Below the pieces are notes generated by a model, which made no database searches, was not told the DNA's origin, and saw only the letters and a program-made list of their open reading frames with translations. Shown one piece after another: positions 3,550 through 5,700 of a stretch of 64,000 nt of DNA. Both the position numbers and the translations under genes were made by a program. The stretch is taken from contig BK006946.2 in assembly GCA_000146045.2 (NCBI GenBank), positions 64,001 through 128,000 on the forward strand. The letters run 5' to 3'. Every line of letters begins with the position of its first letter. The stretch's first letter is position 1. Source of the DNA: TPA_inf: Saccharomyces. Its lineage: Eukaryota.

Positions 3550-3762
3550 GGCTGATGGGGTCCTTTTTTTAGCGGTGGAAAGGGTTATCTCTTTATTTGT
3601 GTTTCTGTTCGAATATTAAAGATGTCTCAAAGTATTCATTTCAAGAAGAAAATTTTTGGTATTACAAAATATTCTTACCCGGAATATATACATATATACC
3701 TTAACTACAAGCAGGAGCCGGCTTTCTGGCAAGGAGGGAGAAGACATAGATTGTTTGCGTAT

Positions 3763-3940
3763 ATATGTGGGAATAGCGTCCAAGCACGCCCGTGGCTGAG
3801 GGAGCACCACGATCGTTCGGTGTACTTGACACCTCTATATGGTATGTTCTTCCCTGATATTGATATCAGCACAATTACGGCTCTAAGAAACGATGAATAT
3901 AAAAAACGTTAATTAGGAATTTGACATATGTGCTAGTATT
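3763..3940 (-). ncRNA. Candidate box H/ACA snoRNA, possibly SNR85 (which guides an 18S rRNA pseudouridine). It lies in the divergent NUP188-CAC2 intergenic region.
   Basis: The region 3551-4293 is non-coding; the two small ORFs there look spurious. On the minus strand an H-box hexamer AGAACA (3850-3845) follows a palindromic hairpin (CTGATATCAATATCAG, 3869-3854). A 12-bp GC-rich stem follows: GTCAAGTACACC at 3830-3819 pairs with GGCGTGCTTGGAC at 3790-3778, with one bulge, one mismatch and one G-U pair. It ends in ...CCC ACA TAT, with the ACA at 3768-3766 three nt from the putative 3' end. A TATA-like TAAATAAAAA lies upstream on the same strand (about 4011-4030). My recollection that SNR85 maps to this intergenic region is unverified. 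Confidence 0.4.
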
Positions 3941-4293
3941 CGGGCCCCTGAGCAAGTTTGTGCGCACGACGCCTGTCCGTTGCTGCACATGCTTGCGTGG
4001 GGCCTTTTTGTCGTGTTTTTATTTAGGGACTGTTATCGAAGGAATAGATTTCTGTGGTGAAAAGTAGAAAACTACTAGCTTTTATAGACGGTGGGGGAGA
4101 AAAAGGAAAATTAGAATTGAAAAAAATTTGAAAAAATATGAAAATGTGAAAAGGACGCCTTATTTCCTTGGGTTGCCCGGCGAACACGTTAGTTAACTCG
4201 CTGTCTAACTGATGGGCTATTATTATAGCGTTATAGTACGTATCAGAATTTAAAAGAAGGAGGCAGAAAAGCTTAGAGCAAAGGGGCAGGACA

Positions 4294-5700
4294 ATGGAAG
4301 CTTCACATTTGCAAATCTACTGGCATGATTCACAACCCGTTTACTCGCTCACATTCCAAAAGAACAGTGCGAACGACAAGCTTTTCACCGCTGGTGGTGA
4401 TAACAAGGTTAGGATATGGAAGTTGAACAGAGATGAAAACGGACAAAATGGGGGGGTGCGTAAGATTGAAAGCCTTGACTTTCTTGGCTCGCTGACGCAT
4501 CACGAACAGGCCATAAATGTAATCCGATTCAACTCGAAGGGTGACGTACTGGCGTCTGCGGGCGATGACGGCCAAGTGCTGCTATGGAAGCAAGAAGATC
4601 CAAATACACAGCAAGAATCTGTGGTCAGACCATTCGGAATGGATGCGGAGACTAGTGAAGCAGACGAGAACAAGGAGAAATGGGTTGTGTGGAAACGGCT
4701 GCGTGGTGGTAGCGGTGCTACTGCGGCGGCAGAGATTTACGATCTAGCGTGGTCACCTGATAACAGGAACATAGTGGTGGCATGTATGGACAATTCGATA
4801 CGACTGTTCGATGTTGGAGCTGGGATGCTGGTATGCGGCCAGTCGGATCATGGTCACTACGTCCAAGGTGTTGCATGGGACCCATTAAATCAGTTTATTC
4901 TCTCACAGTCTGCGGACCGGTCTCTGCATGTATATGGAGTCATTCTTTCATCTGCAGGAGTGGTTACAGGGCTGAAACTTAGAAGTAAGATTGCCAAGGC
5001 AGAACTGCCTTGTCCAGGTGATGTCCTGAGGACAAATTACCTTTTTCACAACGAGACGCTACCTTCATTCTTTAGGCGATGCAGCATATCGCCTTGTGGT
5101 GGTTTGGTCGTAATTCCCAGTGGTGTGTATAAGGTGGCTGGTGATGAAGTCGCGAACTGCGTATACGTGTATACTAGATCTGGAATACTGAACAGCGCTG
5201 GTGGCGTTAAAAACCGGCCTGCGATTAGAATCCCATCTTTGAAGAAACCAGCGCTGATGGCGGCTTTCTCGCCCGTATTTTACGAAACGTGCCAGAAGAG
5301 TGTGCTTAAGCTGCCCTATAAGCTAGTATTTGCCATAGCAACGACTAACGAAGTACTCGTGTACGACACGGATGTATTGGAGCCGTTATGCGTTGTGGGA
5401 AATATACATTACTCACCCATAACTGATTTAGCATGGTCTGAGGATGGCTCGACCCTACTAATCTCATCAACAGACGGATTCTGTTCGTATGTATCGATCG
5501 ACACAGAAACGCAATTCGGTTCAAGGATAGAGCCGCCAGCGATGCATGCAGAGCCACTAGACACTGACGAGAGCGCGGTAGCGGCTAAGAACCAGCGCGA
5601 GGCAGGTGGGATCGTGAACATGCTGCCGGTGAAGAAGATCCCCTGCAATAGTAGCGATAGTAAAAAGAGGCGCATACATCCTACGCCAGTCGATTTGTGA
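4294..5700 (+). CDS. CAC2: Chromatin assembly factor I p60 subunit, a WD40-repeat protein of 468 aa.
   Basis: Intact 468-aa ORF with WD-repeat motifs ([31 protein letters not shown]). Its length and its position after NUP188 match YML102W. Confidence 0.9.

What the first reader, a model, noticed from the sequence alone, without database searches (positions are those of the whole stretch)
3763..3940. Candidate H/ACA snoRNA between NUP188 and CAC2
The 743-bp divergent intergenic region holds no plausible ORF, but its minus strand has the full architecture of a box H/ACA snoRNA. A palindromic 5' hairpin is followed by the H box AGAACA (3850-3845). A 12-bp GC-rich stem follows, whose single G-U pair would be a mismatch on the opposite strand, which points to the minus strand as the RNA. 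It ends in ACA (3768-3766) three nt before a plausible 3' end, with a TATA-like TAAATAAAAA upstream. I believe this corresponds to SNR85, a pseudouridylation guide for 18S rRNA, but I cannot verify the name or the exact ends from the sequence alone.
Basis: partly seen in the sequence, partly recalled or inferred. Interest (0 to 1): 0.55.

Follow-up and report, generated by a model that had tools for sequence, protein, structure and literature searches.

The report
Known yeast snoRNA gene SNR85

Summary
The finding is real and already known. The minus strand of window 3763-3938 is the only Rfam hit in the 64-kb window: RF01240 snR85, 209 bits against a cut-off of 37, over the full model. It lies between NUP188 and CAC2, and the window is S. 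cerevisiae chrXIII with an offset of 64,000. A published snR85 northern probe maps exactly to 3923-3942.

The 5' pocket arms GUCAAAUU and GCCG pair with 18S rRNA around an unpaired UU. This matches the published 8+4 bp that guide Psi1181 (PMC6049503).

I found orthologues upstream of CAC2 in 9 of 10 Saccharomycetaceae. The 5' hairpin shows strong covariation: 8 of 15 pairs have compensatory changes and 0 of 500 shuffles reach the observed score.

Three details were wrong:
- The H box is AUAUCA at 3866-3861, not AGAACA at 3850-3845.
- The conserved TATA is TATAAAAG at 4086-4079, not TAAATAAAAA.
- No clean 12-bp stem with a single G-U pair exists.

The transcription unit also includes a conserved 5'-leader hairpin cleaved by Rnt1 (AGGC loop, 3974-3971) and a downstream Reb1 site (3675-3682). 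Novelty: none.

The parts
3763..3938 (-). Mature snR85 box H/ACA snoRNA, 176 nt as delimited by the Rfam model. The 5' end could lie at 3938-3940. The annotation quoted in PMC4334505 corresponds to window 3768-3938.
   Evidence: Rfam RF01240, 209.1 bits, model 1-180/180. The northern probe from PMC2862742 maps to 3923-3942. Annotation coordinates mapped.
3867..3935 (-). 5' hairpin. Lower stem is UAGCACA (3935-3929) with UGUGCUG (3873-3867). Upper stem is CUAA..AACG (3916-3907) with CGUU..UUAG (3892-3883). The pseudouridylation pocket lies between the two stems.
   Evidence: RNAalifold on 10 species gives 15 pairs, 8 with compensatory changes. 94% of cells are paired against 28-47% in the slid controls, and 0 of 500 shuffles reach the observed value. 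The single-sequence fold agrees.
3918..3925 (-). 5' guide arm GUCAAAUU. It pairs with 18S rRNA AAUUUGAC, immediately 3' of the unpaired U1181-U1182.
   Evidence: 8 bp by direct complementarity to the 18S string GAGCCUGCGGCUUAAUUUGACUCAACACGGG. Invariant in 10 species. PMC6049503 reports 8 bp on the 5' side.
3876..3881 (-). 3' guide arm GCCG, which can extend to GCCGUA through a G-U and an A-U pair. It pairs with 18S rRNA (UG)CGGC, immediately 5' of U1181.
   Evidence: One search gives 4 Watson-Crick pairs plus 2 possible further pairs. PMC6049503 reports 4 bp on the 3' side. Conserved in 9 of 10 species, with GCCA in T. globosa.
3861..3866 (-). H box AUAUCA (ANANNA). It starts one nt after the 5' hairpin and 15 nt after the first nt of the 3' guide arm.
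   Evidence: The hexamer at this offset fits ANANNA in 9 of 10 species: AUAUCA, AUAUUA, AAAAUA or AUAAUA. It is upper-case (well conserved) in the Rfam consensus.
3845..3850 (-). It is not the H box. Its first A (3850) is the last base of the basal stem GGGAA of the 3' hairpin, and the rest lies in the internal loop.
   Evidence: It lies 31 nt from the pocket. It reads AGAACC, AGGACA and AGAAUG in L032, S. kudriavzevii and S. eubayanus.
3769..3854 (-). 3' hairpin. The basal stem is GGGAA (3854-3850) with UUCCC (3773-3769). The interior is branched and variable, and no guide function is known for it.
   Evidence: The basal stem is kept in 4 Saccharomyces species, with one G-C to G-U change. The small hairpin GGUGU/ACACC becomes GGUGC/GCACC in L032, a compensatory change read from the alignment printed. 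PMC2551606 states that snR85 has only a 5' pocket.
3766..3768 (-). ACA box, followed by the 3-nt tail UAU (3765-3763).
   Evidence: Present in S. cerevisiae, L032 and S. kudriavzevii. S. eubayanus has AUA at this position.
3943..4004 (-). Hairpin in the 5' leader of the precursor, the Rnt1 (yeast RNase III) processing signal. The AGGC tetraloop is at 3974-3971. The published excised fragment is 3953-3992.
   Evidence: Fold energy -33.1 kcal/mol, z = -4.1. The fold with the AGGC tetraloop enforced is isoenergetic at -33.0. GAC-AG-NN-GUC is invariant in 4 Saccharomyces species. PMC4334505 supplement file 17 lists chrXIII 67953-67992, minus strand, 55,247 reads, loop NGNN/AGGC. With an offset of 64,000 the loop sits at the centre of that fragment.
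4079..4086 (-). Conserved TATA box TATAAAAG, the likely core promoter element of SNR85. It lies about 75 bp upstream of the leader hairpin.
   Evidence: Conserved as TATAAAA or TATATAA in 4 Saccharomyces species. Its role as the promoter is inferred. No transcription start site data were examined.
3675..3682 (+). Reb1 consensus site TTACCCGG (CCGGGTAA on the minus strand), 81 bp downstream of the snR85 3' end. It is a roadblock that backs up transcription termination and lies upstream of the NUP188 start codon.
   Evidence: Invariant in 4 Saccharomyces species. PMC5052057 lists SNR85 among the snoRNA genes with a Reb1 roadblock downstream. That this particular motif is the bound site is inferred.

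Best explanation
Window 3763-3938 (minus strand) is SNR85, the S. cerevisiae gene for the box H/ACA snoRNA snR85.

The probable pathway is as follows. RNA polymerase II transcribes a precursor from a TATA-containing promoter shared divergently with CAC2 (inferred). The precursor carries a 5' leader that folds into a hairpin capped by an AGGC tetraloop. Rnt1 cleaves that hairpin (shown in the literature), and 5'-3' exonucleases then trim back to the mature 5' end (inferred from the established snoRNA pathway). Termination and 3' trimming stop three nt after the ACA box, and a Reb1 roadblock 81 bp downstream backs up termination (literature plus the conserved motif).

The mature RNA of about 176 nt folds as hairpin, H box (AUAUCA), hairpin, ACA. 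It assembles with the H/ACA core proteins Cbf5, Nhp2, Gar1 and Nop10.

The internal loop of the 5' hairpin pairs with 18S rRNA on both sides of U1181-U1182: GUCAAAUU with AAUUUGAC, and GCCG with CGGC. This places U1181 in the Cbf5 active site for isomerisation to pseudouridine. The 3' hairpin has no known target and most likely serves only as a scaffold for snoRNP assembly.
For: - Rfam snR85, 209.1 bits, E 1.4e-43, full model, minus strand only.
- The published snR85 probe matches at 3923-3942 (PMC2862742).
- The neighbours are NUP188 and CAC2. The chrXIII offset of 64,000 agrees with published coordinates.
- The guide arms pair with 18S rRNA by 8 bp plus 4-6 bp around an unpaired UU, and the H box lies 15 nt from the pocket. 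PMC6049503 shows by mutagenesis that this 5' pocket (8+4 bp) directs Psi1181.
- In nhp2 mutants snR85 is almost undetectable, and the deletion is viable (PMC2862742).
- Orthologues score above the Rfam cut-off in 9 of 10 Saccharomycetaceae loci. The guide arms are conserved: the 5' arm in all 10 species, the 3' arm GCCG in 9 of 10. The 5' hairpin covaries, with 8 of 15 pairs compensatory, 0 of 500 shuffles reaching the score, and slid controls at 28-47% paired against 94%.
- The leader hairpin has z = -4.1, a conserved GAC-AGNN-GUC tip and a published Rnt1 product with an AGGC loop. The precursor accumulates in rnt1-delta cells (PMC4334505).
- A Reb1 roadblock at SNR85 is reported in PMC5052057, and the motif is invariant.
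Against: Nothing contradicts the identification. The weak points are these:
- Single-sequence thermodynamics is uninformative. The whole RNA has z = -0.98, and the opposite strand folds slightly better.
- The interior of the 3' hairpin is poorly defined, and the alignment is uncertain even among Saccharomyces species.
- The exact 5' end (3938-3940) and 3' end were not measured here. The annotation quoted in PMC4334505 stops at window 3768, inside the ACA box.
- Nrd1/Nab3 tetramers downstream are not significantly enriched: 4 observed against 1.6 expected, p about 0.09.
- RNAalifold prefers a hexaloop tip for the leader hairpin, and one compensatory change supports that alternative.
- K. marxianus lacks a clean ANANNA at the expected offset.
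Confidence: 0.98

Rival explanations
1. The architecture is, with AGAACA (3850-3845) as the H box, so the 3' hairpin would begin only after that hexamer.
For: AGAACA fits ANANNA in S. cerevisiae and lies between the two large hairpins in some single-sequence folds.
Against: It lies 31 nt from the pocket, whereas the established rule is 14-16 nt. It is broken in three of three other Saccharomyces species: AGAACC, AGGACA and AGAAUG. Its first A is the last base of the conserved basal stem GGGAA/UUCCC. Its three A positions are lower-case (variable) in the Rfam consensus, while AUAUCA is upper-case.
Confidence: 0.02
2. The second AUAUCA copy (3860-3855), not the first, is the functional H box, or the two copies are redundant.
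For: It is an exact ANANNA match inside the 12-nt hinge that is unpaired in the Rfam structure. L032 and S. kudriavzevii have AUACCA there, which still fits ANANNA.
Against: It lies 21 nt from the pocket. No ANANNA is found at that offset in S. eubayanus or in most of the distant yeasts, while the hexamer at offset 14-15 fits in 9 of 10 species.
Confidence: 0.05
3. The conserved block reflects a protein-coding or promoter element, for example the 96-aa ORF on the plus strand at 3622-3912 or NUP188/CAC2 regulatory DNA, rather than an RNA gene.
For: An ATG-initiated 96-aa ORF overlaps the region on the plus strand. The region lies in a shared promoter interval.
Against: Indels of 4, 5 and 10 nt between Saccharomyces species fall inside the ORF. 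Substitutions are compensatory within RNA stems. There is a covariance-model hit and published northern evidence. The element also stays upstream of CAC2 in species where NUP188 is elsewhere.
Confidence: 0.005

Closest known systems
SNR85 / snR85 of Saccharomyces cerevisiae (Rfam RF01240), first described by Schattner et al. 2004, NAR 32:4281. That paper could not be read here and is cited through PMC2551606.
   Same: It is the same gene. The evidence is a full-length covariance-model match, the same chromosomal position (chrXIII 67,763/67,768-67,938), an exact match to the published probe, and guide arms that fit the published 8+4 bp pairing for 18S Psi1181.
   Different: Nothing biological differs. 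The annotation coordinates quoted in PMC4334505 stop at the first A of the ACA box, whereas the Rfam model and the ACA-plus-3 rule put the end 5 nt further on, at window 3763.
snR36 and snR35, yeast H/ACA guides for 18S Psi1187 and m1acp3-Psi1191
   Same: They belong to the same class and target the same small region of 18S rRNA. Their target sites overlap that of snR85, so they cannot bind at the same time (PMC2862742).
   Different: They are different genes with different guide sequences. In an rps15-1 background, deleting snr36 slows growth while deleting snr85 speeds it up (PMC2862742).
Vertebrate SNORA5 (ACA5/5b/c)
   Same: PMC2653536 lists snR85 as the yeast counterpart of the chicken ACA5-type guides for the equivalent 18S uridine, chicken 18S-1196. 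The function is the same: an H/ACA guide for the homologous rRNA position.
   Different: The vertebrate genes lie in introns of host genes and are released by splicing. Some carry the guide in the 3' pocket or guide additional sites. SNR85 is an independent Pol II unit with an Rnt1-processed 5' leader. I did not test sequence homology beyond the guide arms.
Rnt1-processed snoRNA precursors, such as snR39B, snR60, snR81, snR83 and snR87
   Same: All have a 5' leader hairpin capped by an AGNN/NGNN tetraloop that Rnt1 cleaves before exonucleolytic trimming (PMC4334505; bioRxiv 10.1101/2025.03.07.642061).
   Different: The snR85 stem has a G-G mismatch next to the three closing pairs in S. cerevisiae. 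Its NGNN loop score of 0.89 is lower than that of classic substrates such as snR60 (0.99) or snR87 (0.98). An alternative hexaloop tip is isoenergetic.

Membership tests
Rfam RF01240 snR85 (box H/ACA snoRNA) | Covariance-model score at or above the curated gathering cut-off of 37 bits | tested here: met
   209.1 bits, E 1.4e-43, model positions 1-180 of 180, minus strand.
Box H/ACA snoRNA | Hairpin-hinge-hairpin-tail secondary structure | tested here: met
   The 5' hairpin has 15 pairs, 94% of cells paired in 10 species, 8 pairs with compensatory changes, 0 of 500 shuffles reaching the score, and slid controls at 28-47%. The basal stem of the 3' hairpin, GGGAA/UUCCC, is kept in 4 Saccharomyces species, but its interior is less certain.
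Box H/ACA snoRNA | H box (ANANNA) in the single-stranded hinge directly after the 5' hairpin | tested here: met
AUAUCA at 3866-3861. A hexamer fitting ANANNA is present at the same offset in 9 of 10 species.
Box H/ACA snoRNA | ACA (or the AUA variant) three nt from the mature 3' end | tested here: inconclusive
   The motif ACA at 3768-3766 is followed by 3 nt up to the end of the Rfam model, and it is conserved, with AUA in S. eubayanus. The physical 3' end of the RNA cannot be measured with these tools.
Box H/ACA pseudouridylation guide | Bipartite pocket complementary to the target on both sides of an unpaired U-N, with the target U about 14-16 nt upstream of the H or ACA box | tested here: met
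   GUCAAAUU forms 8 bp and GCCG(UA) forms 4-6 bp with the 18S string CUGCGGC-UU-AAUUUGAC. The H box starts 15 nt after the first nt of the 3' arm. This matches the 8+4 bp in PMC6049503.
Box H/ACA pseudouridylation guide | Pseudouridine at the target site depends on the RNA | not testable with these tools
   Literature only. Pocket mutants of snR85 expressed in an snr85 deletion strain change Psi1181 formation (PMC6049503).
Box H/ACA snoRNP | A stable RNA that accumulates in dependence on the core proteins Cbf5, Nhp2, Nop10 and Gar1 | not testable with these tools
   Literature only. snR85 is detected by northern blot and is almost undetectable in nhp2 insertion mutants (PMC2862742).
Rnt1 (yeast RNase III) substrate | Stem-loop capped by an AGNN/NGNN tetraloop, with cleavage at a fixed distance from the loop (14-16 bp in the established model, recalled from the Rnt1 literature) | tested here: inconclusive
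   The hairpin at 4004-3943 has z = -4.1. The AGGC-tetraloop fold is isoenergetic with the minimum-energy fold. GAC-AGNN-GUC is invariant in 4 species, but RNAalifold prefers a hexaloop. The literature gives cleavage and the loop call AGGC, and that fragment is centred on 3974-3971.

The most novel reading that the evidence does not exclude
The 3' hairpin of snR85 is regarded as having no guide function, but it may have a second, undescribed role, such as an orphan or conditional pseudouridylation target or a specific protein contact. Its 3' strand GCCACGGGCGU (window 3796-3786) is invariant in four Saccharomyces species, while the opposite strand changes (AUCGUGGU to CCCGUGGC). PMC6049503 argues that known H/ACA RNAs probably have further substrates. 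Separately, the divergent SNR85-CAC2 arrangement is kept in 8 of the 10 Saccharomycetaceae sampled, even where NUP188 has moved away. This might reflect a selected shared promoter.
Probability: 0.05. Interest if true: 0.3.

Novelty: already known. Interest (0 to 1): 0.05.

Why it matters
For discovery it matters little, because SNR85 has been annotated since 2004 and its target was verified by mutagenesis.

The useful outcome is a calibration of the first-stage reader. From raw sequence alone it recognised a real H/ACA snoRNA and got the name, strand, ACA box, 3' end and target rRNA right. It misplaced the H box and the TATA element. This shows that motif-level details read by eye need checking against orthologues.

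The cross-species comparison also gives a compact map of the whole transcription unit: TATA box, Rnt1 leader hairpin, mature RNA and Reb1 roadblock. It also suggests that the annotation coordinates quoted in one paper cut into the ACA box.

Tried and rejected
- **Metagenome scan for orthologues.** I scanned with ATGTCAAATTN{30,60}GAGCCGTAAT and got 31 matches, about what chance predicts. Only three were real, and all were 99.4-100% identical to S. cerevisiae, so they gave no comparative information. I used CAC2 synteny instead.
- **Discovery papers.** Schattner 2004 (PMC514388) and Torchet 2005 (PMC1370777) are not in the held library. I therefore derived the box assignments from orthologues and the distance rule.
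- **Thermodynamics for strand choice.** Single-sequence folding was uninformative: z = -0.98 against -0.33, and the plus strand is slightly more stable.
- **Bacterial-type promoter and terminator scan.** It gave nothing beyond chance and does not apply to a yeast Pol II gene.
- **Nrd1/Nab3 motifs downstream.** They are not significantly enriched: 4 observed against 1.6 expected, p about 0.09. The termination mechanism therefore rests on the literature and the Reb1 motif.
- **A guide in the 3' hairpin.** I rejected this because the internal-loop strands in the Rfam structure are not conserved even among Saccharomyces. GAACAUA becomes GAACCUA, GGACACA and GAAUGUA, and ACGCUA becomes ACACUA, CCUUUU and GCUUUC.
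- **Coding potential of the 96-aa plus-strand ORF.** I rejected this because frame-breaking indels fall inside it.

Full report
**Observation.** The minus strand of the 744-bp interval between the NUP188 start codon (3549-3547) and the CAC2 start codon (4294) was read directly. A scan of the whole 64-kb window against all 4,227 Rfam families gave exactly one match above a gathering cut-off. It is RF01240 snR85 at 3763-3938 on the minus strand, with 209.1 bits against a cut-off of 37, E = 1.4e-43, covering model positions 1-180 of 180.

The neighbours are as stated. The translated minus-strand ORF matches yeast Nup188 (PDB 7n84_X) over 1000 residues at 2142 bits. The 468-aa ORF at 4294-5700 is the CAF-1 p60 orthologue and is 99% identical to an S. 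cerevisiae protein.

The northern probe used for snR85 in PMC2862742, GACATATGTGCTAGTATTCG, occurs once in the window, at 3923-3942.

Published coordinates fit an offset of exactly 64,000 on chrXIII. The Rnt1-excised fragment at 67,953-67,992 maps to 3953-3992, with its reported AGGC loop centred and 18 nt on each side.

**Anatomy.** Folding the 5' half alone gives three elements:
- a lower stem, UAGCACA (3935-3929) with UGUGCUG (3873-3867);
- an internal loop;
- an upper stem, CUAA..AACG with CGUU..UUAG.

The two strands of the internal loop are GUCAAAUU (3925-3918) and GCCG(UA) (3881-3876). I compared them with the conserved eukaryotic 18S string GAGCCTGCGGCTTAATTTGACTCAACACGGG, which PMC12727693 lists as an 18S capture probe. 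The 5' arm forms 8 consecutive pairs with AAUUUGAC. The 3' arm forms 4 Watson-Crick pairs with CGGC, plus a possible G-U and A-U. A UU dinucleotide is left unpaired between the two duplexes.

This is the canonical H/ACA pocket geometry. It matches PMC6049503, which reports 12 bp (8 on the 5' side, 4 on the 3' side) around U1181-U1182 and shows by pocket mutagenesis in an snr85 deletion strain that this pocket directs Psi1181 of 18S rRNA.

ACA lies at 3768-3766 and is followed by three nt up to the end of the Rfam model.

There are five ANANNA hexamers in the RNA.

That hexamer lies 31 nt after the first nt of the 3' guide arm, whereas the established distance between pocket and box is 14-16 nt. 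AUAUCA at 3866-3861 lies at 15 nt. AGAACA also overlaps the basal stem GGGAA/UUCCC of the 3' hairpin in the Rfam consensus structure.

The orthologues decide the matter. The hexamer 14-15 nt after GCCG is AUAUCA, AUAUUA, AAAAUA or AUAAUA in 9 of 10 species. K. marxianus is unclear.

The "12-bp GC-rich stem with a single G-U" is not reproducible. The inverted-repeat search reported nothing in the 3' half. From the sequence, the pairing there is discontinuous, with 10 pairs, one mismatch and two G-U. Free energies do not separate the strands. The strand is fixed by the covariance model, the boxes and the guide complementarity.

The TATA-like TAAATAAAAA (4025-4016) is not conserved, whereas TATAAAAG at 4086-4079 is.

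**Related sequences.** A pattern scan of metagenome contigs returned only three near-identical S. cerevisiae copies. I therefore searched for Cac2 orthologues and fetched their loci from ten yeasts. Rfam finds snR85 above its cut-off in nine of the ten, always on the strand opposite CAC2. The nine are:
- a Saccharomyces species with a Cac2 90% identical to the window's;
- S. kudriavzevii and S. eubayanus;
- Z. rouxii, N. castellii, N. glabratus and T. globosa;
- E. gossypii and K. marxianus.

L. fermentati gave no hit.

In a 10-species alignment of the 5' domain, the 5' guide arm and lower stem are nearly invariant, and the 3' guide arm differs only in T. globosa (GCCA). The upper stem changes sequence but keeps its pairing. 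There are 15 predicted pairs, and 8 have compensatory double changes. With controls, 94% of cells are paired against 28-47% when partners are slid by 1-3 columns, and 0 of 500 shuffles reach the observed covariation score.

Among the four Saccharomyces species the basal stem of the 3' hairpin is kept, with one G-C to G-U change. Its interior is variable, and the alignment there is uncertain. The strands of its internal loop are not conserved. This fits the statement in PMC2551606 that snR85 has only a 5' pocket.

**Surroundings and biogenesis.** Aligning the whole intergenic region of the four Saccharomyces species shows further conserved blocks.

Upstream of the mature RNA, 4004-3943 folds into a strong hairpin: -33.1 kcal/mol, z = -4.1, with only 1 of 200 shuffles as stable. 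Its tip, GAC-AG-NN-GUC, is invariant except for the NN positions (AGGC, AGUU, AGGU, AGGC). Enforcing the AGGC tetraloop costs only 0.1 kcal/mol. RNAalifold prefers an alternative hexaloop closed by a pair that shows one compensatory change, so the tip structure is not settled by computation.

PMC4334505 identifies the most abundant Rnt1 cleavage product in its data set as the 5' leader of pre-snR85, with loop NGNN/AGGC, and shows that the precursor accumulates in rnt1-delta cells. An independent PARE study also finds Rnt1 sites 5' of SNR85.

Downstream, CCGGGTAA (TTACCCGG on the plus strand, 3675-3682) is invariant. PMC5052057 lists SNR85 among the snoRNA genes whose termination is backed by a Reb1 roadblock. 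PMC4687934 notes that SNR85 is one of only three Pol II snoRNA genes without read-through in npl3-delta cells. Nrd1/Nab3 tetramers between the 3' end and the Reb1 site are not significantly enriched.

**Mechanism.** The following steps are shown, here or in the literature:
- the identity of the gene;
- the pocket-target pairing and the dependence of Psi1181 on it;
- near-loss of snR85 in nhp2 mutants (PMC2862742);
- Rnt1 cleavage of the leader.

The following steps are inferred:
- promoter use of TATAAAAG;
- 5' trimming by exonucleases after Rnt1 cleavage;
- the exact mature ends;
- a purely structural role for the 3' hairpin.

**Comparison and novelty.** This is SNR85 itself, not a relative of it. 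Functional counterparts in vertebrates are the intronic ACA5-type (SNORA5) guides for the homologous 18S uridine (PMC2653536). Nothing here is new, so I rate it "already known" with very low interest.

The only residual points are minor:
- The annotation quoted in one paper ends inside the ACA box.
- An 11-nt strand of the 3' hairpin is invariant in four Saccharomyces species.
- The divergent SNR85-CAC2 arrangement is conserved across the family.

Noticed in passing
window 3763-3768: The SNR85 annotation quoted in PMC4334505 (supplement file 12: chrXIII 67768-67938, 171 nt) maps to window 3768-3938. It stops at the first A of the ACA box and leaves out CA plus the 3-nt tail. The Rfam model and the ACA-plus-3 rule put the 3' end at 3763 (chrXIII 67,763). 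I could not check the current SGD record.
   Followed up: partly
loci L032-L041: The snR85 gene lies directly upstream of CAC2 and divergent from it in 8 of the 10 Saccharomycetaceae sampled. Four of these (Z. rouxii, E. gossypii, K. marxianus, T. globosa) have a HAD_SAK_1 gene rather than NUP188 on the other side. In N. castellii it stays beside NUP188, with an extra 337-aa ORF between it and CAC2. L. fermentati has a 394-aa ORF in that position and no Rfam hit.
   Followed up: partly
L034:3490-3500 (S. eubayanus): The S. eubayanus orthologue has AUA rather than ACA at the 3' box position (UUCCC-AUA-CGC). AUA is a known tolerated variant.
   Followed up: no
L040:3529-3545 (K. marxianus): The K. 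marxianus orthologue has GAAAUGGA where the H box is expected, and no hexamer at that offset fits ANANNA. It also has a much longer 3' region of different sequence. The Rfam score is only 45.7 bits.
   Followed up: no
window 3646-3658 (minus strand CAAAAATTTTCTT): This 13-nt block is invariant in four Saccharomyces species. It lies between the Reb1 site and the NUP188 start codon. From memory it resembles the RRPE motif (AAAAATTTT) of ribosome-biogenesis promoters. It is probably a NUP188 promoter element.
   Followed up: no
window 4173-4180 (minus strand CCGGGCAA): A second, near-consensus Reb1-like site lies inside a 30-nt conserved block (TTAACTAGCGTGTTCGCCGGGCAACCCA) in the promoter region shared by CAC2 and SNR85. 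It is an exact CCGGGTAA in S. kudriavzevii. A long T tract (about 4100-4150) follows it.
   Followed up: no
window 3786-3796 (minus strand GCCACGGGCGU): This 11-nt strand of the 3' hairpin is invariant in four Saccharomyces species, while its pairing partner changes on one side (AUCGUGGU to CCCGUGGC, turning G-U pairs and a mismatch into G-C pairs). The pattern fits an RNA read from the minus strand. No specific function is known.
   Followed up: no
From memory this resembles the Tbf1 sites reported at many yeast snoRNA promoters. It is not conserved in the other three Saccharomyces species.
   Followed up: partly
L041:1502-1612: The T. globosa locus carries a tRNA gene of 111 nt, long enough to contain an intron, between the RSN1-like and HAD_SAK_1 genes (Rfam tRNA, 48.3 bits).
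   Followed up: no
L033:4001-4100 (S. kudriavzevii): The S. kudriavzevii CAC2 gene model is 501 aa against 468 aa in S. cerevisiae. The extra 33 codons at the N-terminus align with non-coding promoter sequence in the other species, so that model probably starts too far upstream.
   Followed up: no
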